Shown here: positions 5,100 through 31,845 of the stretch, piece by piece
Layout of the letters: each line of letters opens with the position of its first letter
Position numbering within the stretch: the stretch's first letter is position 1
Source of the DNA: Defluviitaleaceae bacterium
GTDB lineage: Bacteria > Bacillota > Clostridia > Lachnospirales > UBA5962
DNA length: 32,542 nt
Direction: 5' to 3'
NCBI GenBank assembly: GCA_009787435.1
Contig: WRFW01000222.1
Location: forward strand, 1 to 32,542
Notes under the pieces: generated by a model
Database searches by the model: none
What the model was told of the DNA's origin: nothing
The model's input: the letters and a program-made list of their open reading frames with translations, nothing else
Translations under genes and position numbers: made by a program

Positions 5100-5882
5100 T
5101 CATTTGTCAATATTTTTTTGGATTGCTATTTTAATCAATTGGTTAGACATAACATTGTAAATATCTTTATAATTTTCTGGCAAGGCTTCTAAATGAGATT
5201 TAACAGTCTCTAGATCTCCACGCTCAATTGGACCTGTTAATGCGTTTATACTACCTTTTGATTTTATATTATTAATAGTAGTTTCTACTAGACCCATTAA
5301 CATTTCTGTGTTTTGAATGCCAGCTTCTTTGAGTACATTTTCAGCAATATTATAAATTCCAACTAAAAAATTAGAAGCTATTACAGCCGCTGCATGATAT
5401 AGCGGCTTAGCTTCTTTTTTAATTATTTGATTGTTTGGAAATAGCTCTTTTATTATGTGAATATGTTTGCTATCACCCTCTATAGTAAACATTATTTTTT
5501 TTAAGTCTGTTTCTTTTGTAACAGCTGCCATTGGATGTATTGAAAAGCCTATATTATCTTTAAACAAATCGGAAGCCAAAAAGCCAGACATATGGCAAAA
5601 TATAATTTTGCCACTTGCAATGGAAGCTATGCCATCGGAAAAACTACCGTCGCTAAGAGTAGGAACTAAAGGAAAGTTAGCTTCCAAACTGCCTTTTGAA
5701 ATATGATTATTGGCTAAATAAGTTTTAATTTGTTCATAGACTTCTTTAATTTTGCTATCTGGCGTTGCAATGAAAATAATATTTGCATTTTTGGTTTCTT
5801 CTATATTTTTTGTAGGTGTTATTCCGAGATAAGAACCAAGAGCAGTGCCAACTTTCCCACAACCAATTATACACTTTTTCAT
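5100..5882 (-). CDS. Rossmann-fold NAD(P) oxidoreductase, DUF2520 / ProC-like family
   Basis: N-terminal IIGCGKVGTALG dinucleotide-binding motif. Length and C-terminal helical domain fit DUF2520-type proteins. The start overlaps the upstream stop (ATGA). Confidence 0.7.
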   Translation of the reverse strand: MKKCIIGCGKVGTALGSYLGITPTKNIEETKNANIIFIATPDSKIKEVYEQIKTYLANNHISKGSLEANFPLVPTLSDGSFSDGIASIASGKIIFCHMSGFLASDLFKDNIGFSIHPMAAVTKETDLKKIMFTIEGDSKHIHIIKELFPNNQIIKKEAKPLYHAAAVIASNFLVGIYNIAENVLKEAGIQNTEMLMGLVETTINNIKSKGSINALTGPIERGDLETVKSHLEALPENYKDIYNVMSNQLIKIAIQKNIDK

Positions 5883-7024
5883 TGATTTACTACTAGAGGA
5901 ATGCTGTTTTCTTCTAGCTTTGGCGGTTCAGAGCTATTAACTGCTTTGCTTTTACAAGATTGCAAAAAATTTATAAAATCATAAACCATTGTTAAATCGG
6001 ATTCATTAAAATTGCTAGTGATAAATTTAATTTTTTGAAATATGTTAGATTTCTCATTAATTGTAGTGTTGCCCTCATTTTTGCCATATAAAAGCTCATC
6101 TAATGGGGTATCTAATATATATGCTAATTCAAGCATTCTATATGTAGGGAAGCTTCGCTCACCGCTTTCAAAAAGAATTAAGTGGCTTTTGCTAATGTCT
6201 AATTTTTCTGCAAAATCTTCTGCTTCAAAATTTAAGCTTTCCCTAATAGTTTTTACGCTTGAACCAATTAAAATACCAAAATGCCTTTTAGTGAGATTAA
6301 TACCCTTGCTAGGTCTATATCTTCTAACTTCATCTTTAGCGACATTATAAAGAGGTCTATCTTTCATTTTTTCAAGAAGCTCTAAATTTTGAGTTAAAAA
6401 TTCAGAATCTTCATCAAATATGCCTGCTCTTAATAAAGCAAAAGTTTCAAACTTCTTAAGTTCATCACCTTTTCTTTCGGAGATAGATAACACATTATTA
6501 AGGTGTGCTTTAAAAAGAGACTTAGCATTATTTAAACGTTTAGGCTCTTTTAAATGGTCTATTTCTAAAAATTTTGCTTTTAATATTCTTGATAACATAT
6601 TAATATGAATAAAAAAGCTTATACGAACAGTAGGAACTTCATCTACATATTTATTTAAAGCTGCCAAAGTCAAACTACAAAGTTTTTCAGCTTCTTCAAA
6701 ACTTTGTACCCACATTAAAACTAATTGTGAAATTCTTATATCACCAATATCCCAACTAGTAACAGGCAAATTCATAAGCCTATTAAAAACAGGCAATACA
6801 AGTTTATAAATTTCTTTAAAATCAACTTTTTGATTTTCAGCTTCATAAGCTTTAAGTATTTTCAAAATATCTAAAAGTTGTATATCTTCCTTGCCATCCT
6901 CTTTATGGTACTTTTCAATATCTTTCTTTAATTTTTCAGCCTTATCAATATTTTTATAGTTACCACCCAAAGAAGAAAACTCTTTTAATAAGTTTTCTTT
7001 ACTGATGATGTTAGTTTTCTGCAA
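5879..7024 (-). CDS. atypical XRE-family transcriptional regulator: about 240-aa helical N-terminal domain followed by an HTH
   Basis: TTG start 6 nt after GGAGGG. XRE-type HTH at about aa 245-312 (SVKTIRESLNFEAEDFAEKLDISKSHLILFESGERSFPTYRMLELAYILDTPLDELL). Confidence 0.75.
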   Translation of the reverse strand: MQKTNIISKENLLKEFSSLGGNYKNIDKAEKLKKDIEKYHKEDGKEDIQLLDILKILKAYEAENQKVDFKEIYKLVLPVFNRLMNLPVTSWDIGDIRISQLVLMWVQSFEEAEKLCSLTLAALNKYVDEVPTVRISFFIHINMLSRILKAKFLEIDHLKEPKRLNNAKSLFKAHLNNVLSISERKGDELKKFETFALLRAGIFDEDSEFLTQNLELLEKMKDRPLYNVAKDEVRRYRPSKGINLTKRHFGILIGSSVKTIRESLNFEAEDFAEKLDISKSHLILFESGERSFPTYRMLELAYILDTPLDELLYGKNEGNTTINEKSNIFQKIKFITSNFNESDLTMVYDFINFLQSCKSKAVNSSEPPKLEENSIPLVVNQ

Positions 7025-7039: not shown

Positions 7040-7099
7040 CTAATCCCAACCTTCTGATATATTAGCATCTAGCGGGCGGATTTTAATTTCAATTCTCAT
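7040..7099 (-). CDS. 19-aa peptide, copy 1: MRIEIKIRPLDANISEGWD
   Basis: ATG 7 nt after AGGAGGGA. Its stop lies 15 nt upstream of the regulator start. It is a paralogue of two upstream copies that carry synonymous differences. Confidence 0.6.
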   Translation of the reverse strand: MRIEIKIRPLDANISEGWD

Positions 7100-7146
7100 T
7101 TTCTATCCCTCCTAAATTCTTTTTAGTTTTTATAAAAGGCAACTTA

Positions 7147-7206
7147 CTAATCCCAACCATCTGAAATATTTGCAGTTAAAGGCCGTATTTCAATTTTAAT
7201 TCTCAT
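7147..7206 (-). CDS. 19-aa peptide, copy 2: MRIKIEIRPLTANISDGWD
   Basis: Own AGGAGGGA RBS. Same length and frame as copies 1 and 3. Confidence 0.6.
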   Translation of the reverse strand: MRIKIEIRPLTANISDGWD

Positions 7207-7280
7207 TTTTTATCCCTCCTAAATTTCTTATAGTAATTTTCTGAAACCAAGCCTATTTAATTTTCTAAAAGGCAATAATA

Positions 7281-7340
7281 CTATTCAAAGCTGTCTGTTA
7301 TATTAGCACCTAACGGGCGTATCTTAATTTCAATTCTCAT
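7281..7340 (-). CDS. 19-aa peptide, copy 3: MRIEIKIRPLGANITDSFE
   Basis: Own AAGGAGAGGGA RBS. First gene after the promoter. Confidence 0.6.
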   Translation of the reverse strand: MRIEIKIRPLGANITDSFE

Positions 7341-7374
7341 TTTTCCCTCTCCTTATATTAGTTTCTTATAGAAA

Positions 7375-10488: not shown

Positions 10489-10649
10489 ACCATAAAATCC
10501 CCTTTTGAATGTAATTTAAATATTTATAAAATTAAGCTGCAGCATAAAATTGAGTATATTCTCACAAGCAATCACATACTACAACACAGTAACTTATATT
10601 ATAACAAAATTTTCACAAGATGTAAAGAGTTTTTAAAAATTGCATAAAT

Positions 10650-10717
10650 GTTTATATAATAAAGCTATACCTTGGCTAGGTTTCTTTAAATTTCTTTGAG
10701 ATGCATTGCCATAATAG
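10650..10717 (-). repeat. solitary diverged copy of the AAGAAnCnTAGCCAAG stem-loop repeat family
   Basis: The minus strand reads AAAGAAACCTAGCCAAGGTATAGCTTTATTATAT. Compare TAAGAAGCTTAGCCAAGGTGATG at 29142-29164 and TAAGAAGCATAGCCAAGTTATAG on the minus strand of 20588-20766. Confidence 0.45.
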
Positions 10718-13084: not shown

Positions 13085-13143
13085 AATAAATCCCCCTTGT
13101 TGAAGCAAGATTTGTTTCAACAAAATTATTATTTGAGGATTTT

Positions 13144-13241
13144 AAAAATTTATGAGTGCCAACATTTATACAGTGAAATTTTTTAATAGGTTCTATTCTA
13201 TTTTGAAAATATTTCAAAATTTATGAGTGCCAGTATTTATA
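13144..13241 (-). repeat. two direct copies (72-nt period) of a 26-nt core AAAATTTATGAGTGCCArYATTTATA
   Basis: 13144-13169 and 13216-13241 are identical at 24 of 26 positions. On the minus strand the core resembles the GTATAA..TTGGGCA block of the repeat family. Confidence 0.6.
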
Positions 13242-13263
13242 TAGCGGTTTGTTAGAACTTTAT

Positions 13264-18405: not shown

Positions 18406-18592
18406 CCTCCCCCAAATATAATAGCTGCTCACGGTTGGGAAAGCAGTGGCTAAAACCGCTCGCTAGCTATTATATTGGGAGAGAAAAAACTTACTAGCTG
18501 CTCATGCGTTGGAAAGCAGTGGCTAAAACCGCTCGCTAGCTATTATATTGGGAGAGAAAAAACTTACTAGCTGCTCATGCGTTGGAAAGCAA
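18406..18592 (+). repeat. tandem repeat, 73-nt period, about 2.5 copies, each unit with two hairpins. The first unit lies within a long imperfect inverted repeat.
   Basis: AGCTGCTCA starts at 18423, 18496 and 18569. Unit 3 matches unit 2 exactly over its 23 retained nt. CTCCCCCAAATATAATAGC (18407-18425) is complementary to GCTATTATATTGGGAGAG (18466-18483). Confidence 0.8.
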
Positions 18593-18627
18593 TAGTTAAA
18601 TATATTAAATACCTTACAGGTGTGTAA

Positions 18628-20043: not shown

Positions 20044-20574
20044 CTATAATTGCCTGTTATAAACATCACCACCGTAACAATCCAAAGCTACTATTAATGG
20101 CATTTTTTCAACCGTTAACTTTCTTATAGCTTCTGTGCCTAAATCTTCAAAGGCTACTATTTCTAAACTTGTTACGCATTTGCTCATTAATGCTGCTATT
20201 CCACCTGGCTGTGCAAAATATACCCCTGTATGGTCAATTACTGCTTTTTTAACTTCTTCGCCGCGAATTCCTTTTCCTATCATGGCTTTTAAACCTTTTT
20301 CAATTAAAATAGGTGAATATTTATCCATACGAACTGCCGTAGTAGGTCCAATAGAGCCGATAACAGCCCCGGGCGGCGTTGGAGAGGGTCCTGCATAAAA
20401 AACTATTTGACCCTCAAACTGGATAGGCATAGGCTCCCCTTTTTCTAGCATTTCACATAAACGCTTATGAGCCGCATCTCTTGCTGTATATATGCTGCCA
20501 GTTAAATATACAGTTTCGCCTACTTTTAAACTTTTAATTATATCGTCTGTTAGTGGTGTGCTAATTTCTTTCAT
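20044..20574 (-). CDS. class I Fe-S hydro-lyase beta subunit (fumarate hydratase/tartrate dehydratase beta type; plausibly mesaconase beta)
   Basis: 176 aa. Typical GSIYTARDAAHKRL and GPTTAVRMD motifs of FumA-C-terminal/TtdB-like proteins. Confidence 0.8.
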   Translation of the reverse strand: MKEISTPLTDDIIKSLKVGETVYLTGSIYTARDAAHKRLCEMLEKGEPMPIQFEGQIVFYAGPSPTPPGAVIGSIGPTTAVRMDKYSPILIEKGLKAMIGKGIRGEEVKKAVIDHTGVYFAQPGGIAALMSKCVTSLEIVAFEDLGTEAIRKLTVEKMPLIVALDCYGGDVYNRQL

Positions 20575-20587
20575 TTCTATAAATTCC

Positions 20588-20766
20588 TTTTTTAATAACG
20601 CCCAAACTTTGTTATACCAAAACTATAACTTGGCTATGCTTCTTAAAATTATTAAAATAATTTTTTATAATGCCCAAACTTTGTTATACCAAACTATAAC
20701 TTGGCTATGCTTCTTAAAATCATTAAAATAATTTTTTATAATGCCCCAAATTTTGTTATACCAAAA
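20588..20766 (-). repeat. tandem repeat, 71-72-nt period, about 2.6 copies, filling the whole alpha-beta intercistronic gap
   Basis: GCCCAAAC recurs from 20600 and 20672, with GCCCCAAA from 20743. The minus-strand units contain the stem-loop GCCAAG-GTTATA-GTTTGG-TATAAC-AAAG-TTTGGGC. Confidence 0.85.
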
Positions 20767-21606
20767 CTACAATTCAAAAGCCATATGCCTTGTAACGTGG
20801 CAGCCTATATTTAAAGCTACTGGCAACCCTGCAATATGGGTTGGGTAAGTATTTATGTGCACTGCAAGAGCAGTAGTTCGACCGCCAAAACCAGCAGGAC
20901 CAATGCCTGTTTTATTTATTTCTTCTAATAACTCATCTTCAATTTTGCCCCAATATTCATCTTCATTTTTAGTGCCAATTTCACGAAGAAGAGCTTGTTT
21001 ACTCATTATTGCCGCTTTTTCCATAGTGCCGCCAATTCCTAAGCCTACAATTATAGGAGGGCAAGGGTTACTATCTGCTTCCACAATACTTTTTATTACA
21101 AATTTCTTAATACCCTCTAACCCATCTGAAGGCATTAACATTTTTAAAGTGCTCATATTTTCAGAGCCAAAACCTTTTGGTGAAATTGTTACTTTAAAAG
21201 TATCCCCCTCTACAACTGTGTAGTGAATAACGGCTGGTGTGTTATCTTTCGTATTTTCACGGCGAAGCGGGTCTTTTACTACCGATTTTCTTAAATATCC
21301 ATCTTCATAGCCTATGCGTATACCCTCATTTATGGCATTTTCAAGGCTGCCGCCAACAATGCGAACATCTTGCCCAAGCTCTACAAAAACCGCTACCATT
21401 CCTGTATCTTGGCATAGTGGTATGCGGTATTGTTCGGCTTGTTTGGCATTTTCAAGCATACTTTCTATAATATTTTTCGCTTTATCATCTTCACGCTCTA
21501 ATGCACGCTCTAATGCTTTTTTTATATCTTCTGCAACGAAAATATTTGAAGATATACATAACTTAGCTACATTTTCCGTAACTTGGCTTATATTTATTTC
21601 TTTCAT
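20767..21606 (-). CDS. class I Fe-S hydro-lyase alpha subunit (fumarate hydratase alpha type; plausibly mesaconase alpha)
   Basis: I prefer the start at ATG 21606 (MKEINISQ...), 5 nt after GGGGG. PLCQDTGM Fe-S ligand motif. Confidence 0.8.
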   Translation of the reverse strand: MKEINISQVTENVAKLCISSNIFVAEDIKKALERALEREDDKAKNIIESMLENAKQAEQYRIPLCQDTGMVAVFVELGQDVRIVGGSLENAINEGIRIGYEDGYLRKSVVKDPLRRENTKDNTPAVIHYTVVEGDTFKVTISPKGFGSENMSTLKMLMPSDGLEGIKKFVIKSIVEADSNPCPPIIVGLGIGGTMEKAAIMSKQALLREIGTKNEDEYWGKIEDELLEEINKTGIGPAGFGGRTTALAVHINTYPTHIAGLPVALNIGCHVTRHMAFEL

Positions 21607-21618
21607 ACGACCCCCATC

Positions 21619-21631
21619 CCACCTGCGGTGG
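21619..21631 (-). repeat. GC-rich hairpin CCACC-NNN-GGTGG, copy 1, immediately upstream of the alpha-subunit RBS
   Basis: ccacctgcggtgg read directly from the sequence. Confidence 0.7.
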
Positions 21632-21693
21632 AGCAAAACCGCCTGCAACGGAATAAGAAAATAATTTTCTAATATTCACTTTATAACTCAAAA

Positions 21694-22923
21694 CTAGGCA
21701 GTTAATGCTAATATTCTTTGCATTTCATTATAATTAATCATATACCCCTCGTCTACACCCATTCCAGGCTTTGAAAGAACTTGCATTGGGCTAGTTGCCA
21801 TTGCAATGTGCATACAAACTTGGGCACTTCTTTCTGTTTCATTACATGTGCCGCCTAAGTAAGCACCCATGCCATGCTGTTTACAATGAAGAACAGACTT
21901 TATAGAGTTATTTATGCCACCTAAATCGGGTGTTTTTATTTGAAGAATATGCCCAGATTTTTCTTTAGTGAATGCTATAATATCTTCATAAGTGTTACAC
22001 CATTCATCGGCAACGATTTTAACATTTAAGCCTTTTGCTTCACACTTTTCCCTTAAAGTTTTGAGTGCGTATATTTGCCCATCTAAAGAATTTGTTTCAA
22101 TAGGCCCCTCTAAAAAGAGTTCTAAGCCGCGGGCTGCCTCTTCTAATTTACCTATATAATCGGCTATTCTATCATAATGCATATCAAAAACGTAACCTAA
22201 TGTGCCATAAATATCTAAGTGGATTATTGGCTTATAATCTTCATAAACTTTTATTTTATCTATACGCTCTCTTAGCCATTCAACATATGCAAGCAAGTTT
22301 TGACCAGATTGCCCTGTCTTTTCTATAGTATTAAAAAGGCCATGGGGAAGTGCAGGAACACCTTTTAAAATCATTTTATCTGCATTTAAGTATCTATCAT
22401 CACCGGATTGAGTGAATATAGGTATTATTTTTTTAGATATTTCTGTGTTATATTCTTCAGAGATTACTTCAGCCATTAGCTTTCCTTTAGCTTTTGAAAC
22501 GGCATCTAAGAGGGCTTGAGTTGCACCATATCGAATGGCAGTGTGAAGCTTGCCGCCTTTAAATTCTAAACTATCAACTTTTTTTGCAGCTTCTCTAAAA
22601 TTTTTAAGCTCATAACCTACTAAAACAGGCTTTAAAGCTTCTTCTATAACTGGTATATAATCCGAAGCTATAAATAGCGGGTCTCTGCCACCTGCCCCAG
22701 AATATTGAACAGCGGCACAATCGCCATAAGCAACTTGCCCATTTTCTAAAACTAGCATTATAGAAACACTTTCCCCTGGTTGGCGAACTGCTTTAAACCC
22801 TTGAGTAACAGGCGTTCCTCTATATGCATTTCCATCACCAACAGCATTTTCTTTTATAGCTTTTTTGTCATCAAAGAAAAAACCGCTATACCCTGCAGAG
22901 CATTTCATATCTACTATTTTCAT
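21694..22923 (-). CDS. mal: methylaspartate ammonia-lyase (3-methylaspartase)
   Basis: The full length resembles the clostridial enzyme as I recall it: MKIVD...GFFFDD, CAAVQYSGAGGRDPLF, HTAIRYG, QSGDDRY, IKTPDLGG, GAYLGGTCNETERSA. Confidence 0.9.
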   Translation of the reverse strand: MKIVDMKCSAGYSGFFFDDKKAIKENAVGDGNAYRGTPVTQGFKAVRQPGESVSIMLVLENGQVAYGDCAAVQYSGAGGRDPLFIASDYIPVIEEALKPVLVGYELKNFREAAKKVDSLEFKGGKLHTAIRYGATQALLDAVSKAKGKLMAEVISEEYNTEISKKIIPIFTQSGDDRYLNADKMILKGVPALPHGLFNTIEKTGQSGQNLLAYVEWLRERIDKIKVYEDYKPIIHLDIYGTLGYVFDMHYDRIADYIGKLEEAARGLELFLEGPIETNSLDGQIYALKTLREKCEAKGLNVKIVADEWCNTYEDIIAFTKEKSGHILQIKTPDLGGINNSIKSVLHCKQHGMGAYLGGTCNETERSAQVCMHIAMATSPMQVLSKPGMGVDEGYMINYNEMQRILALTA

Positions 22924-22940
22924 AAGTTACCTCCATTTTT

Positions 22941-22954
22941 CCGCCTAAAGGCGG
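22941..22954 (-). repeat. GC-rich hairpin CCGCC-TTTA-GGCGG just upstream of the mal RBS
   Basis: The minus strand reads CCGCCTTTAGGCGGAAAAATGGAGGTAACTTATG. Confidence 0.6.
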
Positions 22955-23030
22955 GGTATGATTATTTTGCAAAATACAAGTTTCTACACGATTAGAAAGT
23001 ATGTTAATTTTTTTAAATTCTTATATAATT

Positions 23031-23059
23031 ATTATACAACATTAACAAACCTTTGTAAA
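23031..23059 (-). promoter_or_regulatory. promoter TTTACA-17-TATAAT for the mal/hydro-lyase operon
   Basis: Minus strand: TTTACA (23054-23059), 17 nt spacer, TATAAT (23031-23036), about 100 nt upstream of the mal ATG. Confidence 0.5.
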
Positions 23060-23072
23060 GAAATTTTTAAAA

Positions 23073-23085
23073 CCACCTGCGGTGG
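23073..23085 (-). repeat. GC-rich hairpin CCACC-NNN-GGTGG, copy 2 (13-mer identical to copy 1)
   Basis: ccacctgcggtgg. On the minus strand it is followed by TTTTAAAAATTT. Confidence 0.7.
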
Positions 23086-23164
23086 GGCTATAATATCCAA
23101 GTATCTCTATACCATATATACATCTTAGTTAAGTTTCTTTAAAAGTTTAAAAGTTTTAAACAAA

Positions 23165-23177
23165 CCACCTTCGGTGG
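23165..23177 (-). repeat. GC-rich hairpin CCACC-NNN-GGTGG, copy 3
   Basis: ccaccttcggtgg. On the minus strand it is preceded by the direct repeat TATAGTCCCGC x2. Confidence 0.7.
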
Positions 23178-23227
23178 GGTTGCGGGACTATAGCGGGACT
23201 ATAATAACTAAGCATTATTATACATAA

Positions 23228-23253
23228 AAAATAAAAAAGAGCCTTTCGGCTCT
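23228..23253 (-). terminator. intrinsic terminator of the PFOR gene
   Basis: AGAGCC-GAAA-GGCTCT followed by a TTTTTTATTTTTT run on the minus strand. Confidence 0.75.
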
Positions 23254-23260
23254 CTTTTAT

Positions 23261-26200
23261 TTATACTTCCAAAGGCTCTTGGTCTGCAATACGTTTGTAT
23301 TCTGCATATTTTCTTGCCGCTTGGTCTGCAGCTTCTTTATATAAAATTTCAGCACGCTCTGGGAAGAAACGTTTTAATGAAGCATACCTATTTTCTGTGT
23401 CTAAAAATTCTTCCATACTTATTTTCGGTTCTTTTGAATCTAATTGGAATGGATTTTTACCTTGCTCGCGTAAATCTGGGTTGTAACGGTACAAATGCCA
23501 GTAACCACTATTTACTGCCGCTTTAATTTGGCTCATAGATTTACCCATACCCTCTTTTATACCGTGTTCTATACAAGGAGAGTATGCAATTACTATACTA
23601 GGTCCATTATATTCTTCAGCTTCTTTAAGTGCTTTTATAGTTTGGTTGTAGTCTGCACCCATACCTACTTGAGCAACATAAACGTTACCGTAACTCATAG
23701 CTATCATACCTAAGTCTTTTTTACCTGAAGATTTACCACTTGAAGCAAATTTTTGGATAGCACCAACTGGTGTAGACTTAGAAGATTGACCACCTGTGTT
23801 TGAATAAACTTCTGTGTCAAATATTAAAATGTTTATATTTTCACCAGTAGATATTACATGGTCTAAACCGCTGAAGCCTATATCATAAGCCCAGCCATCG
23901 CCACCAAATATCCAATGGGATATTTTAGCTAAACTATCTTTATTTTTCACAAGGTCTAATCTTATTTCTTCTGCTTCGCCTGTGAAAGAACTTGTTTCTA
24001 AAAGCTGAACTAATTCTTTTGAAGCTACTTTAGATTCTATAGTTTTCTCTATAGTAACCATCCAATTTTCTATAGCGTTGTTTAACTCTTCATTGCCAGA
24101 TATTTCAGCTAAACGCTTAGCTTTAATCATATGGCCTTCTTTAATTTTTTTGTTTCCTAAAACTATACCGAAACCAAACTCTGCGGCATCTTCAAAGAGA
24201 GAATTTGCCCAAGCTGGTCCTCTACCTTGGCGGTTCACAGTATAAGGAGTTGAAGGTGCTGAAGAACCCCAAATAGAGCTGCAGCCAGTAGCATTAGCTA
24301 TAACCATGCTATCACCGTATAGTTGAGTAACTAATTTAGCATAAGGAGTTTCACCACAGCCTGCACAAGCCCCAGAGTATTCAAGAAGTGGCTGCTCAAA
24401 TTGAGAACCTTTTGGAGTGTATTTATTAGCAGGATTTGGTTTTTCTGAAAGAGTCATCGCATATTCCCAAGCTGGGAATTTGTGAATCTCTTCATCTATC
24501 GGCTTCATAACTAACGCTTTTTTACCCGCTTTACCAGGGCAAACATCGGCACAAACAGAACATCCAACACAGTCCATTTGATTTATCAAAATGCTGAAGT
24601 TGTAATCAACGTTTCTATCATTAAATTTTAAAGTATCAAAAATTGAACCTGGTGCATTTTCTAACTCTTCATGAGTTGAAAGGAATGGCCTTATAGTAGC
24701 ATGCGGGCAAACGTATGCACAGAAGTTACATTGTATACAGTTTTCTTTTTCCCAACTTGGCACTTCAAGGGCGATTGCTCTTTTTTCATATTTACTAGTA
24801 CCTTGTTGAAATGTACCATCTTCTTGACCAACAAATGTTGAAACTGGAATGCTATCCCCTCTCATTGAGTCTATAGGCACATTTATACGTTTGAAGTGTT
24901 CAGGTGCCTCAATTTCTTTTGCTTCTTCAAGCGGAGCATTTGCCCAGTCTGCCGGAACATCTATTTTAGTTAAAGCGTTAACACCTGCATCTACAGCGGC
25001 ATTGTTCATATCAATAACTTTTTGACCACGCTTACCATAGCTTGATTCAATAGCTTTTTTCATTTCAACTATAGCGTCTTCAATTGGTATTATATTTGAA
25101 AGTTTGAAAAATGCGGACTGAAGAACTGTGTTAGTTCTGTGCCCTAATCCAATTTCACCCGCTATTTTAGTTGCATCTATTATATAGAAGTTAATTTTAT
25201 TTTTTGCTAAATAGCGTTTCACTGAACCTGGAAGCTTTTCTTCTAAGTCTTCTACAGACCAGTTAGTATTAAGAAGGAAAGTGCCCCCCTCTTTAAGCCC
25301 CTCTAAAACATCGTATTTTTCAAGGAAATTTGCACGGTGGCAAGCTATAAAGTTTGATATTTTAACGAGATATGGAGAGCGGATTTTTTCTTTACCGAAA
25401 CGCAAGTGCGATTGAGTAACACCGCCGGCTTTTTTAGAATCATAGCTGAAATAGCCTTGTGCATATTGGTCTGTACTATCACCTATTATTTTAATTGCAT
25501 TTTTATTTGCTGAAATTGTACCATCTGAGCCTAGCCCCCAAATTTTCACACTAATGTTTCCATCTGGAGTCATGTCTACTTCTTCGCCAACTTCTAATGA
25601 AAGGTTTGTAACATCATCTACTATTCCGACTGTGAAACCATTTCTAGGCTCTGGCTGTTTTAAGTTTTCAAAAACAGCTAAAATTTGAGCCGGTGTAACA
25701 TCTTTACTACTTAAACCGTAACGCCCACCTACTATTAAAGGGCGGTTTGCTTCTGAGAAATAAACAGTACAAACATCTTGATATAATGGCTCGCCAATAG
25801 CACCCGGGTCTTTAGATTTATCTAAAACGCTTATTCTTTCAACAGTTTTAGGCATTTCTTTTAAGAAGTGTGCCACAGAGAAAGGCCTAAACAATCTAAC
25901 ATTTAAGACACCTACTTTTTCACCTTTAGCCATTAAATAGTCTACAGTTTCTGCTATAGTTTCGCAAGCAGACCCCATAGCAACTATTACGTGTGTAGCT
26001 TCTGTGTGCCCATAGTAGTTGAAAAGCCTATAATCACGCCCAGTTAATTTATTTATTTTATTCATATTTTCTTCAACAACAGCAGGAACAGCGTTATAAT
26101 AAGGGTTTGCTGCTTCTCTAGCTTGGAAGAATATATCTGGATTTTGTGCAGAACCACGCAAAACAGGCTCTGTAGGGTTTAACCCTCTCTTTCTAAATTC

Positions 26201-26803
26201 ATTAAGAGCATCCATATCTAATAAATCTCTTAAATCATCATAATCTAAAACGTCTATTTTTTGGATTTCGTGGCTAGTTCTGAACCCATCTAAAACGTGC
26301 CCAAAAGGAACACGCCCTTGTATTGCACTAAGGTGTGCAACTGCTGCCAAGTCCATAGCTTCTTGAACATTTGAGCCGAAAAGGAAAGCAAACCCAGTTT
26401 GCCTTGCCGCCATAACGTCTGAATGGTCTCCGAAGATTGAAAGTGCATGAGTCGCTATAGAACGAGCTGTGATGTGTAAAACTGCAGGCAAAAGCTGCCC
26501 AGCCATTTTATACATATTTGGAATCATTAAAAGAAGCCCTTGAGAAGCTGTGTAAGTTGTAGTTAGAGCCCCTGACTGTAAAGAGCCGTGAACAGTTCCG
26601 GCTGCACCACCCTCAGACTGCATTTCTATAACATTTACTGTTTGCCCAAACATATTTTGCTTGCCTTGGGCTGCCCAAGCGTCTGTATTTTCGGCTAAGG
26701 CTGTGGACGGTGTGATAGGATAAATGCCAGCAACTTCTGTGAAAGCATATGCTGTGTAAGCTGCTGCTTGAGCACCATCCATTGTTTTTTGAATTTTCGC
26801 CAT
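23261..26803 (-). CDS. nifJ: pyruvate:ferredoxin (flavodoxin) oxidoreductase, single-polypeptide NifJ/PFOR type
   Basis: 1180 aa. Two ferredoxin-type CxxCxxCxxxCP motifs (CIQCNFCAYVCP, CVGCSVCADVCP). TPP-binding GGDGWAYDIG. Confidence 0.93.
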   Translation of the reverse strand: MAKIQKTMDGAQAAAYTAYAFTEVAGIYPITPSTALAENTDAWAAQGKQNMFGQTVNVIEMQSEGGAAGTVHGSLQSGALTTTYTASQGLLLMIPNMYKMAGQLLPAVLHITARSIATHALSIFGDHSDVMAARQTGFAFLFGSNVQEAMDLAAVAHLSAIQGRVPFGHVLDGFRTSHEIQKIDVLDYDDLRDLLDMDALNEFRKRGLNPTEPVLRGSAQNPDIFFQAREAANPYYNAVPAVVEENMNKINKLTGRDYRLFNYYGHTEATHVIVAMGSACETIAETVDYLMAKGEKVGVLNVRLFRPFSVAHFLKEMPKTVERISVLDKSKDPGAIGEPLYQDVCTVYFSEANRPLIVGGRYGLSSKDVTPAQILAVFENLKQPEPRNGFTVGIVDDVTNLSLEVGEEVDMTPDGNISVKIWGLGSDGTISANKNAIKIIGDSTDQYAQGYFSYDSKKAGGVTQSHLRFGKEKIRSPYLVKISNFIACHRANFLEKYDVLEGLKEGGTFLLNTNWSVEDLEEKLPGSVKRYLAKNKINFYIIDATKIAGEIGLGHRTNTVLQSAFFKLSNIIPIEDAIVEMKKAIESSYGKRGQKVIDMNNAAVDAGVNALTKIDVPADWANAPLEEAKEIEAPEHFKRINVPIDSMRGDSIPVSTFVGQEDGTFQQGTSKYEKRAIALEVPSWEKENCIQCNFCAYVCPHATIRPFLSTHEELENAPGSIFDTLKFNDRNVDYNFSILINQMDCVGCSVCADVCPGKAGKKALVMKPIDEEIHKFPAWEYAMTLSEKPNPANKYTPKGSQFEQPLLEYSGACAGCGETPYAKLVTQLYGDSMVIANATGCSSIWGSSAPSTPYTVNRQGRGPAWANSLFEDAAEFGFGIVLGNKKIKEGHMIKAKRLAEISGNEELNNAIENWMVTIEKTIESKVASKELVQLLETSSFTGEAEEIRLDLVKNKDSLAKISHWIFGGDGWAYDIGFSGLDHVISTGENINILIFDTEVYSNTGGQSSKSTPVGAIQKFASSGKSSGKKDLGMIAMSYGNVYVAQVGMGADYNQTIKALKEAEEYNGPSIVIAYSPCIEHGIKEGMGKSMSQIKAAVNSGYWHLYRYNPDLREQGKNPFQLDSKEPKISMEEFLDTENRYASLKRFFPERAEILYKEAADQAARKYAEYKRIADQEPLEV

Positions 26804-28613: not shown

Positions 28614-29000
28614 ATGATAAACCATATAGAAATATATGTATCTAACTTACAAAAATCTTTAGTGATGTGGGAATGGTTTTTAAATGAGCTTGGCTATGAA
28701 AAGTTTCAAAAATGGGAGCAAGGGGAAAGTTATAAACTAGGAGAGTTCTATATAGTTTTTGTACAAGCGGAAGAAAAATTTTTAAAAGATGGCTACCATA
28801 GAAAGCGTATAGGTTTAAATCACCTAGCATTTAAGGCAAATTCAAAAGAGCAAATTGATAAAATATCGAAAGAATTAAAAAAGCAAAAAATAAAAATTTT
28901 ATATGAAGAAAAGCACCCATATGCTGGTGGTGAAAATCACTATGCAGTTTATTTTGAAGATTATGATAGAATAAAAGTTGAGCTTTGTTACAGTTCTTAA
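28614..29000 (+). CDS. VOC (glyoxalase/bleomycin-resistance/dioxygenase) family protein
   Basis: 128 aa. INHIEIYVSNL start and GLNHLAF motif, paired beta-alpha-beta-beta-beta module pattern. Confidence 0.75.
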   Translation: MINHIEIYVSNLQKSLVMWEWFLNELGYEKFQKWEQGESYKLGEFYIVFVQAEEKFLKDGYHRKRIGLNHLAFKANSKEQIDKISKELKKQKIKILYEEKHPYAGGENHYAVYFEDYDRIKVELCYSS

Positions 29001-29022
29001 ATAGTATCAATTAATCTTAAAG

Positions 29023-29198
29023 TATCATTACACTTGGGTATTTCTAAGATTTGCTTGAAAAATTTTTAAAAAGCTTAGCCAAGGTGATGATTTGGTATCA
29101 TTACACTTGGGCATTTCTAAGATTTGCTTGAAAAATTTTTAAGAAGCTTAGCCAAGGTGATGATTTGGTATCGTTATACTTGGGCATTTCTAAAAAAT
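29023..29198 (+). repeat. tandem repeat, 73-nt period, about 2.4 copies; same family as 20588-20766 (opposite strand)
   Basis: GTATC starts at 29023, 29096 and 29169. Shared blocks are TTTTAAGAAGCwTAGCCAAG, TTTGGTAT and TTGGGCATT. Complete stem-loops at 29079-29113 and 29152-29186. Confidence 0.85.
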
Positions 29199-29251: not shown

Positions 29252-31489
29252 TTAATTGCTTAGTTCTATTCTAACGCTATTTATTATAATTGCTTGCAAA
29301 TTTTCTAAATCTATTATTCCTGGGCTAGTTCTAAATTGCAAGTTACTTTCATGGCGACTAATTGGATGTGAATAAAAACTGCTTCCTGTAGCAGTTGGGG
29401 TTATTCTACCAAATTGAACACCTGGCATTAAGCTAATAAACTGAGGAGTATTGCTATAAATAATTTGGCTATAGTTTTCATATTCCAAAATTATTTGCAA
29501 ATCAAGCGGCAATGCTAGTTCATCCACAACCATTGCTAGCTCTGCACCATTTTCTATAGTAAATGAAAACTCACTTGAAGTTAAAACTATATTTGAAAGA
29601 TTAAAACTTTCATTTGATATTTCAACAGCTATATCATTAAAATATAGCGGGCTAACATTTGCTATAGGGCTTTCAAACTCAAAATCAATATTTAAATTAA
29701 TTGTATGCTCAAAAACCATTGATTGTAAAAATGAGTTCATAGACATAACTTCAAAAGTCTCTCCTGTCCTAACATCAATTACTTTTGATATCTCTACTTC
29801 ATCTTCTATTGCAGATATAATTGTTGAAACTTCTTCTGTTATTGGTGTTATCATGCGGAAGCTAGCGTATCTTTCTACTGGCAGTTCTCTCATTTCTATA
29901 AAGCCTACATTAATTGTTGCAATATCTAGTGTTCTTGTTGAATCTCTAGGCTCTTGCCCCTCTATTTCTATATGCCATTGATGCTCTAAGAGATATAAAA
30001 CGCCATCTTCTTCATGAAGCAAATGAACGAGAGATAAACTACCATCACTTCTTAAAAATTGAGGTGTAAACTCTCCATATTCATTAAAGAAGTTTAAATC
30101 TCCGCTGTTATCACTTAATGAAAAAATATTAAATTTACGTAAATTCTCAATAGTAACTTTTTCAGGGGTATACGTTTCATCTATTTGCCCGTCTTCTAGC
30201 CAAAGGAAGTTATAAAAGCTAAACTCTGAAGTAAGTGAAACAGTGTATAACACTTCTATAGTTATTTGGTCTGCTGTGTAAATTAAATTTAAAGGAGCAG
30301 CATTTCTTAACGCTAATCCATACCCTGCCCCAAAAGCACGATAAAATAACTTATTTGTGATACTTTCAAAATATTGCTGCTCACCATTTTGTACGTTTAT
30401 TTCTACAGCATTAAGCTGCACACCTCTCGTTGCAAATATTGTAACTGCTGTGGCAACGGTTGCAACAGCAAAAACATTTCTTAATAAATTTGTCTTTTTA
30501 CTTTTCATAAGAACACCTATCCTTTCTTCTATGTTATTGTTAAAAGTGTTTATTAACGGAGAAACCTTTAATTTTTCCACGTGTGTTAATTCTTTAATGT
30601 TTGCAAAAGAAAGAAGAGTTAAACAATAGTCTTTTTTGCTTGAACTGCCAAAGTGTGTGTTTAAATTTTTTATTACTATTTCATCACAAGAAAGCTCTAT
30701 ATCTCTATTTAGCATAAAATACATAACCCAAACGAAAGGGTTAAACCAATGCAAGCAAAGGCTGAGCGTTGCAAGTAATTTTATTAAGGAATCAAACCTT
30801 TTTATGTGTACGAGCTCATGATTTAAGACGAACTGAAGAGCAGATTCATCAATATTTTTCGGTAAAATTATAACTGGTCTAAATATACCATAAGTTAAAG
30901 GACCTAAAACTTTATCACTAGTTTTTATGCGTATGTTCCGTTTAATTTTATTTTCTGCTAACCATTTTGAACAAGAAAATGTTTCTAAAGGAAGTGCTTG
31001 AGCAAAATCTTTTAATGAACTTAAATATATTTTTGTGAAAAATAGTAACATAATAACTGCAACCGCTAGCCAAACTAAAATTAGAGGGTTAACCAAATAT
31101 AAAATATTGTTAGTTAACGAAGTTTCTTCTGATTGAAGAAGAATCGGGGTTATTTGATTTTCATTTGAAAACTCTTCTAATAACATTTGCGGAATGAAGC
31201 TAGCGGCTTGAGGTAGGTTTATAACTTGATATAATTCTGGATATAGTTCTAAAAACTGTGATTGTTCTAATTGATAATCAAAATTTTGAGGCAGGTAAGA
31301 AGCTTGAAATAAATTAAAAATACTCATTTCAGACTGTATAGAAATTGGCACTAATAACTTTACTAATACTGCAAACCATAAAAATAAAAATGTTGATTTA
31401 GAAAAATGATATAGTGCCAAAAATCGTATAACTAAAGTTACTATAATTAATAAACTTGCAAAAAAGCTCATCTCTAATATATTCATCAT
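29252..31489 (-). CDS. BlaR1/MecR1-family M56 peptidase signal transducer with a large non-PBP extracytoplasmic C-terminal domain
   Basis: N-terminal TM segments, HELVHIKRFD zinc motif, a further TM segment at about aa 335-355, then about 390 aa with no recognisable motifs. 4-nt overlap with blaI. Confidence 0.75.
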   Translation of the reverse strand: MMNILEMSFFASLLIIVTLVIRFLALYHFSKSTFLFLWFAVLVKLLVPISIQSEMSIFNLFQASYLPQNFDYQLEQSQFLELYPELYQVINLPQAASFIPQMLLEEFSNENQITPILLQSEETSLTNNILYLVNPLILVWLAVAVIMLLFFTKIYLSSLKDFAQALPLETFSCSKWLAENKIKRNIRIKTSDKVLGPLTYGIFRPVIILPKNIDESALQFVLNHELVHIKRFDSLIKLLATLSLCLHWFNPFVWVMYFMLNRDIELSCDEIVIKNLNTHFGSSSKKDYCLTLLSFANIKELTHVEKLKVSPLINTFNNNIEERIGVLMKSKKTNLLRNVFAVATVATAVTIFATRGVQLNAVEINVQNGEQQYFESITNKLFYRAFGAGYGLALRNAAPLNLIYTADQITIEVLYTVSLTSEFSFYNFLWLEDGQIDETYTPEKVTIENLRKFNIFSLSDNSGDLNFFNEYGEFTPQFLRSDGSLSLVHLLHEEDGVLYLLEHQWHIEIEGQEPRDSTRTLDIATINVGFIEMRELPVERYASFRMITPITEEVSTIISAIEDEVEISKVIDVRTGETFEVMSMNSFLQSMVFEHTINLNIDFEFESPIANVSPLYFNDIAVEISNESFNLSNIVLTSSEFSFTIENGAELAMVVDELALPLDLQIILEYENYSQIIYSNTPQFISLMPGVQFGRITPTATGSSFYSHPISRHESNLQFRTSPGIIDLENLQAIIINSVRIELSN

Positions 31490-31845
31490 TCCCCCTCCTC
31501 AATTTGTTTCTTCAATTTTTCAAACATATCTGAAGAAATTTTTCTTCTACCTACCAAGCTTGCAAATAGCAATTCTTTAGAACCACCAAAAAGTTTATTA
31601 ACGAGTTCTTCAACTTCTGCATGCTGAACTTCTTCTTTAGTAACAATTGCTTCACAAACAAAGTTTGGGTCTATACGGTTAATTGCACCTTTTTCGATAC
31701 ATTTTTTTATAACTGTGTAAGTAGTATTTTTGTTCCAACCAATTTCTTTATTTAGCAAAGTGGCAATTTCTTTTGCAGTGAGCATATTTTGGCTCCACAA
31801 CACCTCCATAACTTTTAATTCAGAATCAAAGAGTTTAATGGCCAT
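31486..31845 (-). CDS. BlaI/MecI/CopY family winged-helix repressor
   Basis: 119 aa. SELKVMEVLWSQNMLTAKEIATLL...WNKNTTYTVIKKCIEKGAI is typical of the Penicillinase_R family. AGGAGGGA RBS. Confidence 0.85.
   Translation of the reverse strand: MAIKLFDSELKVMEVLWSQNMLTAKEIATLLNKEIGWNKNTTYTVIKKCIEKGAINRIDPNFVCEAIVTKEEVQHAEVEELVNKLFGGSKELLFASLVGRRKISSDMFEKLKKQIEEGE

What the first reader, a model, noticed from the sequence alone, without database searches (positions are those of the whole stretch)
29023..29198. Second array of the same repeat family on the other strand, with compensatory base changes that support an RNA structure
The 73-nt units here share long blocks with the minus strand of 20588-20766: TTTTAAGAAGC(T/A)TAGCCAAG, TTTGGTAT and TTGGGCATT. 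The inner stem differs between copies but stays paired: GUGAU/AUCAU here, GUUAUA/UAUAAC at 20.6 kb and GUAUA/UAUAU in the solitary copy near 10.68 kb. The apical UUUGG and the outer GCCAAG/YUUGG(G)C stem are conserved. The outer stem has C-G here and U-G at 20.6 kb, which pairs only on the strand described. That argues for function at the RNA level, or as single-stranded DNA of that polarity. All copies except this one sit in the sense orientation of the local genes. This array lies between convergent genes, so its orientation is uninformative.
Basis: seen in the sequence. Interest (0 to 1): 0.65.

Follow-up and report, generated by a model that had tools for sequence, protein, structure and literature searches.

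The report
Lineage-specific hairpin repeat in intergenic arrays
The 73-base tandem array is a real copy of a short hairpin-bearing repeat that has spread into the gaps between genes of one uncultured termite-gut bacterium, an ordinary kind of bacterial "junk" repeat rather than a demonstrated structured RNA.

Summary
Window 29022-29193 (+) is a 73-nt tandem array (2.4 copies). It shares the core TAGCCAAG-N7-8-TTGGTAT-N8-TTGGGC with the array at 20577-20776 (-); chance expects 0 such matches and 4 are found.

The window is part of a 181-kb metagenome contig from a Defluviitaleaceae MAG sampled with termite-gut relatives. In about 63 kb of this genome I found five arrays (B, C, D, F, G) and two degenerate single units. 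About 88 kb from the closest relatives has none, and neither do Rfam, the GTDB representative genomes, plasmids or phages.

Relatives have empty sites. Their fumarase alpha-beta spacer is -4 to 27 nt, against 192 nt here.

The RNA-structure argument is only partly supported. A strong hairpin exists only in the C/F1/G subtype (z -2.9 to -4.7). Array B pairs weakly and in a shifted register, and D, F2 and the 10.68-kb unit break the inner stem. The excess of G-U over A-C fits the G+T-rich strand composition. Orientation is not uniformly sense: unit G is antisense inside an operon, and D and S23k lie in probably untranscribed spacers.

Best reading: a new, lineage-restricted interspersed hairpin repeat of the REP/BOX/MIRU kind, with incidental effects on mRNA at most.

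The parts
29022..29062 (+). Array C, first (partial) unit C0: the 3' half of the hairpin (GTATCATTACACTTGGGT) plus the A/T-rich tail
29063..29135 (+). Array C, full unit C1. Hairpin at 29079-29110: CCAAGGUGAUGAU / AUCAUUAC-A-CUUGG, loop UUGGU
   Evidence: CM 84.4 bits
29136..29193 (+). Array C, last unit C2. Hairpin at 29152-29183; its 3' arm AUCGUUAU keeps pairing through two G-U pairs. Unit homology ends at ...GGGCATTTCTAA
   Evidence: 86.8 bits
29198..29235 (-). Intrinsic-terminator-like hairpin with a T-run, for the convergent BlaR1-like gene (29252..31489, minus). Its stem CCCAAG/CTTGGG resembles the repeat's outer stem. Not part of the repeat
   Evidence: weak CM hit, E 0.34
28614..29000 (+). 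Glyoxalase/VOC-family gene. Array C starts 22 nt after its stop, on its sense strand
20577..20776 (-). Array B: 2.5 units of 71-72 nt that fill the spacer between the fumarase/mesaconase alpha (20767..21648) and beta (20044..20574) genes, in sense orientation. Absent from the same site in relatives
10619..10691 (-). Degenerate single unit S10k (3' outer arm lost), directly upstream of the conserved promoter of the MCP gene (TTTACA-17-TATAAT at 10626-10598)
   Evidence: (70.1 bits)
23076..23144 (-). Degenerate single unit S23k, between the PFOR terminator (23262-23229) and the conserved promoter of the methylaspartate ammonia-lyase operon (23059-23031)
   Evidence: (57.2 bits)

Best explanation
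This is a lineage-restricted, non-coding interspersed repeat.

Unit anatomy. Each unit is about 72 nt. It has a conserved 5' block (TTTTAAGAARCNTAG), an imperfect palindrome (CCAAG, a variable 7-8 nt, TTGGTAT, a variable 8 nt, YTTGGGC) and an A/T-rich tail.

Shown. The family occurs at seven or more intergenic places in about 63 kb of one Defluviitaleaceae genome, mostly as head-to-tail arrays of about 2-3 assembled units. The same sites are empty in the nearest available relatives, so the copies are insertions or expansions acquired in this lineage. Its positions are of every intergenic kind: intercistronic, 3' of genes, and upstream of pre-existing promoters.

Inferred. Copies are seeded in intergenic DNA by an unknown transposition or illegitimate-recombination step. 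No terminal inverted repeats, target duplications or partner transposase were seen. Copies then grow by slipped-strand or unequal recombination and homogenise within an array. The palindrome is a property of the element, possibly a recognition hairpin in single-stranded DNA or RNA, and not a selected RNA fold.

Possible effects. Where a unit is transcribed in sense (array C after its gene, array B inside the fumarase operon), the hairpin may act like REP or BOX elements, as a barrier to 3' exonucleases or a weak pause or processing site. The two strong-hairpin arrays (C, F) lie outside operons. The two copies inside operons are either weak (B) or antisense (G, whose complement folds at -4.9 against -12.5 kcal/mol). 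That fits selection against strong sense hairpins within operons, but it rests on only four loci.
For: The family is real and non-random.

More copies in the same genome: array D (L004 2429-2631), array F (L020 945-1115, identical in an independent JGI assembly, L008/L022) and unit G (L020 4950-5050).

Empty sites in relatives. The alpha-beta spacer is 27, 15 and -4 nt in relatives whose beta subunit is 79-82% identical, against 192 nt here, with the alpha C-terminus and the RBS conserved on either side. The MAAL promoter is conserved in L013 without the unit, and the MCP promoter in L018 without the unit. The promoter of the SHOCT-like gene is conserved in L023 and L025 without array F.

No copy was found in about 88 kb of relatives with either nhmmer or the covariance model. 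There were only chance hits in GTDB representatives, and JGI metagenomes gave only the same organism. Nothing turned up in Rfam, plasmids or phages.

Short-read Logan contigs of the same organism stop inside arrays C, D, F and G, as expected for a multi-copy repeat.

The inner stem is not maintained across subtypes. D and S23k sit between a terminator or divergent promoter and the next promoter. G is antisense.
Against: Within the C/F1/G subtype the hairpin is strong, and its four arm substitutions all keep pairing as G-U. G-U exceeds A-C by 14 to 3. Among loci with co-directional flanking genes, 4 of 5 are sense. Primary sequence is best conserved in the 'loop' TTGGTAT and the 5' block, which could mark a protein-binding site. 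No mobilisation machinery or insertion signature was identified, so the spreading mechanism is unproven. Only about 63 kb of the genome could be read.
Confidence: 0.6

Rival explanations
1. A structured cis-acting RNA module. The hairpin with its conserved UUUGGUAU apex is read on the element strand of mRNAs (3' UTRs, intercistronic spacers). It binds a protein or blocks RNases and so tunes the stability or relative expression of the flanking genes.
For: Strong hairpin in C1, C2, F1 and G1 (z -2.9 to -4.7). Wobble-preserving transitions, and G-U exceeding A-C. The element strand folds better than its complement in 11 of 12 units. B, C, F, S10k and S23k lie in the direction of the neighbouring genes.
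Against: The inner stem is broken in D, F2 and S10k and shifted in B. B folds no better than shuffles. G is antisense in an operon. D lies between divergent promoter-like sites and S23k lies after a terminator and before a promoter, so both are probably untranscribed. The G-U excess is explained largely by G+T-rich composition. There is no Rfam match and no conservation in relatives.
Confidence: 0.2
2. A DNA-level protein-binding array. The palindrome arms GCCAAG / CTTGGC and the internal TTGG repeat would be sites for a regulator, a nucleoid-associated protein or a recombinase. The 72-73-bp period (about 7 helical turns) would place sites on one face of the helix. Copies just upstream of promoters would act as upstream regulatory sites.
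For: Four of seven loci (D, F, S10k, S23k) sit directly upstream of, and co-oriented with, strong sigma-70-like promoters. Primary sequence (5' block, TTGGTAT, TTGGGC) is better conserved than pairing. An unrelated array at 18414-18600 has the same 73-nt period.
Against: B lies between two cistrons right up to the RBS, C lies at a gene's 3' end, and G lies inside an operon, so none is at a promoter. Those promoters pre-date the element. Arms 22-24 bp apart are unusual for a dimeric regulator. No candidate binding protein was identified.
Confidence: 0.12
3. An assembly artefact. The arrays would be mis-joins or collapsed or duplicated k-mers in a metagenome assembly, not real genomic features.
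For: All arrays show 2.2-2.5 copies in a k=141 assembly, and Logan contigs break inside them, so the copy number is uncertain.
Against: Array F is identical in independent ENA and JGI assemblies from different samples. Units within arrays carry distinguishing substitutions. Flanks are collinear with the genes on both sides. The family is present at seven loci.
Confidence: 0.03

Closest known systems
REP / BIME elements (repetitive extragenic palindromes; GTAG- and CGTC-tagged families, PMC3733652)
   Same: A short imperfect palindrome of about 32-38 nt that is interspersed in intergenic DNA, often 3' of genes or between cistrons. G-T pairing in the stems suggests transcription. Abundance differs sharply between close relatives. 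It has a possible role as an mRNA 3' barrier.
   Different: The base before the stem is NTAG (T/A/C-TAG), not GTAG or CGTC. Units are head-to-tail, whereas in REPs HT dimers are absent or rare and HH/TT dimers dominate. The unit carries about 35 nt of conserved non-palindromic flank. No RAYT gene was seen in the DNA available. That survey reported such REP families in other phyla and does not mention Firmicutes (PMC3733652).
MIRU (mycobacterial interspersed repetitive units; Supply et al. 1997, as summarised in PMC3184786)
   Same: Units of 40-100 bp in direct tandem arrays, scattered over many intergenic sites, including between genes of one operon and co-transcribed. They are absent from the homologous site of related species.
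   Different: MIRUs contain small ORFs whose ends overlap the flanking genes. Here all three frames are full of stops and the period is not a multiple of 3. There are no tetranucleotide direct repeats at the filled site. The host is a low-GC Firmicute, not a mycobacterium, and there is no sequence similarity.
BOX elements of Streptococcus pneumoniae (also SPRITE, the terminator-like repeat) (PMC3184786)
   Same: A Firmicute intergenic repeat with a tandemly reiterated internal module (boxB), predicted stable secondary structure, transcription, and modulation of neighbouring gene expression.
   Different: There are no distinct terminal boxA/boxC modules: the left flanks of arrays B, C, D, F and G share nothing. 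There is no sequence similarity. The units are not called terminator-like by the scan.
MITEs (e.g. Correia, RUP)
   Same: A small non-autonomous repeat in intergenic DNA next to promoters and terminators.
   Different: No terminal inverted repeats or target-site duplications were found. The tail-flank junction does not fold better than shuffles. Copies form tandem arrays, not single insertions.

Membership tests
REP (GTAG/CGTC-tagged palindromic repeats) | 20-40 bp imperfect palindrome repeated in intergenic DNA | tested here: met
   32-nt hairpin CCAAG...CTTGG in full units, at seven intergenic loci
REP (GTAG/CGTC-tagged palindromic repeats) | Unpaired terminal tetranucleotide GTAG (or CGTC) at one end of the stem | tested here: not met
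   The four bases before the stem are TTAG, ATAG or CTAG and never GTAG; there is no CGTC. Definition taken from PMC3733652
REP (GTAG/CGTC-tagged palindromic repeats) | Clusters made mainly of head-to-head or tail-to-tail dimers (REPIN/BIME); head-to-tail rare | tested here: not met
   All arrays are strictly head-to-tail
REP (GTAG/CGTC-tagged palindromic repeats) | Associated RAYT (IS200/IS605-type tyrosine transposase) gene in the genome | not testable with these tools
   None appears among the genes called in the about 63 kb seen. The rest of the genome could not be read
MIRU | 40-100 bp units in direct tandem arrays at many intergenic sites, including inside operons, absent at the homologous site in relatives | tested here: met
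   71-73-nt units. Array B lies between the fumarase alpha and beta genes. Sites are empty in L011, L012 and L013
MIRU | Units carry small ORFs overlapping the stop and start of the flanking genes (translational coupling); uniform orientation with transcription | tested here: not met
   Stops in all three frames of arrays B and C. Unit G is antisense
BOX | Modular boxA - (boxB)n - boxC architecture with conserved terminal modules | tested here: not met
   No conserved sequence flanks the arrays
MITE | Terminal inverted repeats and target-site duplication | tested here: not met
   No terminal inverted repeats: the junction or whole-unit palindrome is not significant outside the C type. Both flanks of array B pre-exist in the empty site
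Any Rfam RNA family | Score at or above the family's gathering threshold | tested here: not met
   Only a tRNA in the window and nothing in L020. The best sub-threshold hits over the array are eukaryotic snoRNA or miRNA models, far below threshold
CRISPR array | Conserved repeats separated by unique spacers of similar length | tested here: not met
   The whole 72-73-nt period repeats, 'spacer' included
Intrinsic-terminator-like repeats (e.g. SPRITE) | G+C-rich hairpin followed directly by a U-run | tested here: inconclusive
   F1, G1 and D end in GGGC(A/G)UUUUUAAAA, but no unit passes the terminator scan, and the C and B tails lack a U-run

The most novel reading that the evidence does not exclude
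The element is a mobile, strand-specific RNA module. Its conserved UUUGGUAU-capped hairpin would be recognised by an RNA-binding protein or RNase, and its spread into 3' UTRs and intercistronic spacers would have wired unrelated genes (fumarase/mesaconase, a glyoxalase-family gene, L31, an R-M operon) into a post-transcriptional regulon in a termite-gut Firmicute. The variable arm segments would tune hairpin strength according to context.
Probability: 0.1. Interest if true: 0.55.

Novelty: new member of a known kind. Interest (0 to 1): 0.3.

Why it matters
Small interspersed repeats are well described in Proteobacteria, pneumococci and mycobacteria, but hardly at all in uncultured gut Clostridia. 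This family adds a clean case: filled and empty sites can be compared between related genomes, and tandem head-to-tail growth occurs inside an operon.

In practice, the family fragments short-read assemblies of this organism, because contigs end inside the arrays. It may also serve as a strain marker of the VNTR type. It does not by itself open a long-standing question.

Tried and rejected
1. GTDB representative genomes, scanned with the 21-base core pattern: one chance hit in Microbulbifer.

2. JGI metagenomes, same pattern: three chance hits in GC-rich contigs and one real hit from the same organism.

3. IMG/VR: two chance hits.

4. Plasmids and phages by blastn: nothing.

5. Rfam at gathering and at permissive thresholds: nothing relevant.

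6. Using an MCP query to reach paralogous loci of the same genome: it returned only three close homologues, all from relatives. The two of their contigs that I fetched (L018, L019) lack the repeat.

7. Whether the 73-nt array at 18414-18600 is a diverged member: its alignment scores are no better than shuffles, and neither the HMM nor the CM hits it.

8. A second hairpin at the unit junctions, or a whole-unit palindrome (MITE-like): significant only for the C unit as a whole; the junctions give z -1.0 to +1.0.

9. The element donating a -35 box to downstream promoters: rejected for S10k and S23k, because the same promoters exist in relatives without the element. It remains possible for D.

10. 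An alternative pairing of CCAAG with the apical UUUGG: 92% of cells pair, but it is almost invariant, with one double change in D0 only, so it is uninformative.

11. GC skew as a guide to replication strand: it follows gene strand only.

12. A target-site duplication at array B (GAATTGTAG / GAATTTATAG): both halves are ancestral sequence.

Full report
**What is at the coordinates.** Window 29022-29193 (+) is a head-to-tail array with a 73-nt period, 2.4 copies and 95% matches.
- It has a partial first unit, C0 (29022-29062), which is the 3' half of the hairpin plus the tail.
- It then has a full unit C1 (29063-29135) and a last unit C2 (29136-29193).
- The array begins 22 nt after the stop codon of a + strand glyoxalase/VOC-family gene (28614-29000).
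- It ends 5 nt before a 16-bp hairpin with a T-run (29235-29198, minus). That hairpin is the terminator-like site of the convergent BlaR1-like gene at 29252-31489.

**Is it the same family as the 20.6-kb array, and beyond chance?** Yes.
- AAGAAGCWTAGCCAAG has 9 matches at up to 3 mismatches, against 1.45 expected. These include both arrays and the 10.68-kb copy.
- The core TAGCCAAG-N5-9-TTTGGTAT-N5-12-TTGGGC has 4 exact matches against 0 expected: two on the + strand here and two on the minus strand at 20.6 kb.
- A profile HMM and a covariance model recover, in the window, array C, array B (20577-20776, minus) and two degenerate single units. These are S10k (10619-10691, minus) and S23k (23076-23144, minus).

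**Where the window comes from.** It is the reverse of part of ENA metagenome contig ERZ27257291:k141_1124102, which is 181 kb long.
- Proteins just outside the window are identical to NCBI entries named 'MAG... [Defluviitaleaceae bacterium]'.
- The gene content is clostridial: SipL, BofA-type neighbours in relatives, FliW/CsrA.
- The nearest homologues come from sister ENA, JGI and Logan samples. Named hits include termite-associated MAG labels, and the one paper found on Defluviitaleaceae MAGs concerns higher-termite guts. The habitat is therefore inferred, not shown.

**More copies from the same organism.** I could read about 63 kb of this genome: the window, 10 kb and 9.3 kb beyond its two ends (L002, L004), and 11.6 kb of a second contig (L020).
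- Array D (L004 2429-2631) has a degenerate unit D0 plus D1 and D2. It lies between a divergent GH67 gene and rpmE.
- Array F (L020 945-1115) has units F1 and F2 and lies upstream of a SHOCT-like gene. The identical array is in an independent JGI assembly, L008/L022.
- Unit G (L020 4950-5050) is one full unit preceded by a unit tail.
- Short-read Logan contigs of the same organism begin or end inside arrays C, D, F and G. That is what a multi-copy repeat does to a small-k assembly.
- Every array has 2.2-2.5 copies in the k=141 assembly. A 72-nt period would tend to collapse at that k, so I treat the copy numbers as lower bounds (inference).

**Distribution.**
- The 21-base core pattern hit only a chance site among 185,579 GTDB representative genomes.
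- In JGI metagenomes it hit only the same organism plus three chance sites.
- IMG/VR gave chance sites only.
- blastn against plasmids and phages found nothing.
- Rfam has no match at gathering thresholds, and permissive hits are noise.
- About 88 kb from the closest available relatives contains no copy by HMM or covariance model, and no arrays of this period. These relatives have a fumarase beta subunit 79-82% identical, an MCP 56-62% identical and a SHOCT-like protein 70-73% identical.

**Filled versus empty sites.**
- In three relatives the fumarase/mesaconase alpha and beta genes are 27 nt apart, 15 nt apart, or overlap by 4 nt. In the window they are 192 nt apart. The alpha C-terminus (...HVTRHMAFEL*) and the RBS region are conserved on either side, and array B begins at the alpha stop codon.
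- The promoter of the methylaspartate ammonia-lyase operon (TTTACA-17-TATAAT plus spacer sequence) is conserved in L013, which lacks S23k.
- The MCP promoter is present in L018, which lacks S10k.
- The promoter region of the SHOCT-like gene is conserved in L023 and L025, which lack array F.
- The copies are therefore lineage-specific insertions or expansions. No terminal inverted repeats or target duplications were found. The similar 9-mers on either side of array B are both ancestral sequence.

**Anatomy of a unit (alignment A1, 12 units).**
- Conserved: the 5' block TTTTAAGAARCNTAG, then CCAAG, TTGGTAT and YTTGGGC, then an A/T-rich tail (TTTTTAAAAA).
- Hypervariable: the 7-8 nt on each side of TTGGTAT.
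- 5' segment types: GTGATGA (C, F1, G), TTATAG (B, F2), ATAAGGC (D), GTATAGC (S10k).
- 3' segment types: CATTACA, CGTTATA and TGTTACA (C1/F1, C2, G), AACAAAG (B and D), TGTGAAA (F2).
- The two sides are therefore re-assorted, not co-varying.

**Test of the RNA structure.** I used the C-type structure: outer CCAAG/CUUGG and inner 8 bp.
- 74.8% of cells pair. The outer stem is almost invariant and so says little. The central inner-stem pairs are unpaired in 5-7 of 11-12 units.
- The shuffle control is exceeded on percentage paired and on covariation score (0 of 500 shuffles). It is not exceeded on the number of pairs with double changes (142 of 500). The tool itself warns that related sequences exceed the first two measures without any structure.
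- Only C1, C2, F1 and G1 fold better than shuffles (-12.5 to -15.7 kcal/mol, z -2.9 to -4.7). B, D, F2, S10k and S23k have z between +0.1 and -1.1. The whole B array has z 0.07.
- The B-type stem GUUAUA/UAUAAC uses alignment columns 22-27 with 35-40. It is therefore not the homologue of the C-type stem with compensated changes.

**In favour of strand-specific pairing.**
- The four arm differences among C1, C2 and G1 are all transitions that convert a Watson-Crick pair into G-U.
- G-U cells outnumber A-C cells 14 to 3.
- The element strand is the more stable in 11 of 12 units.
- Against this, the strand is G+T-rich (T130 A110 G89 C45), which predicts about 2.3 G-U per A-C. There are only about ten independent events (inference). 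I rate this as suggestive, not significant.

**Orientation and transcriptional context.**
- B is sense and lies between two cistrons.
- C is on the sense strand of its upstream gene, before the shared terminator region.
- F is sense, 227 nt after the upstream gene and just upstream of the next promoter.
- S10k is sense and directly upstream of a promoter.
- S23k lies after the PFOR terminator (23262-23229) and before the next promoter (23059-23031), so it is probably untranscribed.
- D lies between two divergent promoter-like sites (11 of 12 matches each), so it is also probably untranscribed.
- G is antisense, between the res gene and the gene upstream of it in a type III restriction-modification cluster.
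- Among loci with co-directional neighbours the count is 4 sense to 1 antisense, which is not significant.
- The promoter and terminator calls are consensus scans, not evidence of function.

**Interpretation.** The best-supported reading is a new, lineage-restricted interspersed hairpin repeat of the general REP/BIME, BOX or MIRU kind. It colonises intergenic DNA and grows into short tandem arrays, with incidental effects on the mRNAs that carry it at most.
- One pattern worth testing concerns hairpin strength. Strong sense hairpins occur only outside operons (C, F1).
- Inside operons the copy is either weak (B) or antisense (G, complement -4.9 against -12.5 kcal/mol). That would fit a polar effect of the sense RNA hairpin, but it rests on four loci.
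- The rivals cannot be excluded with 63 kb of one genome and no expression data. They are a selected cis-acting RNA module, or a DNA-level binding array upstream of promoters.
- An assembly artefact is unlikely for the family as such, because array F is identical in two independent assemblies. It is likely for the copy numbers.

**Comparison with known families.**
- REP: it lacks the GTAG/CGTC tag, the head-to-head or tail-to-tail organisation and, so far, a RAYT gene. The definitions come from PMC3733652.
- MIRU (PMC3184786): it resembles MIRUs in unit size, tandem direct arrays, intra-operon position and empty sites in relatives. It lacks their overlapping small ORFs and has no sequence relationship.
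- BOX and MITE: it lacks BOX's terminal modules and a MITE's inverted ends.
- It is therefore a new family of a known kind.

**Verdict.** Novelty: new member of a known kind. Interest: about 0.3.

Noticed in passing
window 7040-7368 (minus strand), next to 5879-7024: Three tandem paralogous 19-aa peptide genes (MRIEIKIRPLDANISEGWD, MRIKIEIRPLTANISDGWD, MRIEIKIRPLGANITDSFE). Each has its own RBS, and they lie directly upstream of a 381-aa protein with an HTH_3 domain. This looks like a signalling-peptide/regulator locus or a RiPP-precursor locus.
   Followed up: partly
window 18414-18600 (+): A second kind of 73-nt tandem array (2.3 copies, 96% matches) lies between a RadA-like and a PilB/T2SSE-like ATPase gene. 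It has no detectable sequence relation to the family studied and no other copy in the DNA available, yet it has the same period and copy number. The shared period is unexplained and may partly reflect assembly at k=141.
   Followed up: partly
window 23165-23178 and 23073-23086 (minus); 21618-21632: Mini-hairpins CCCACCG(A/C)AGGTGG, followed by T-rich sequence, flank and interrupt the degenerate unit S23k. One is called terminator-like. A third, imperfect copy lies inside the fumarase alpha gene.
   Followed up: partly
window 13141-13173 and 13212-13244: A 33-nt direct repeat (88% identical), 71 nt start to start, in the spacer between two minus-strand genes. Again the spacing is about 71 nt.
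   Followed up: no
window 29252-31845 (minus): A BlaR1-like M56 peptidase sensor (745 aa) and a BlaI/Penicillinase_R repressor (119 aa) form an overlapping gene pair convergent with array C.
   Followed up: no
window 20044-26803 (minus): PFOR, methylaspartate ammonia-lyase and a two-subunit class I fumarase (probably mesaconase) lie in a row, which suggests part of the methylaspartate route of glutamate fermentation.
   Followed up: no
L020 1-354 and 1709-8824: The gene upstream of array F carries a 24/48/72-nt coding repeat. Unit G sits inside a type III-like restriction-modification cluster (two N6_N4_Mtase genes, a small gene and a ResIII/RE_endonuc gene).
   Followed up: no
L004 2624-2652: The -35 hexamer TTGACA of the rpmE promoter-like site (11 of 12 matches, with TG) falls in the tail of the last unit of array D, where internal units read TTGAGA. 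The element may contribute to this promoter. There was no relative with which to test it.
   Followed up: partly
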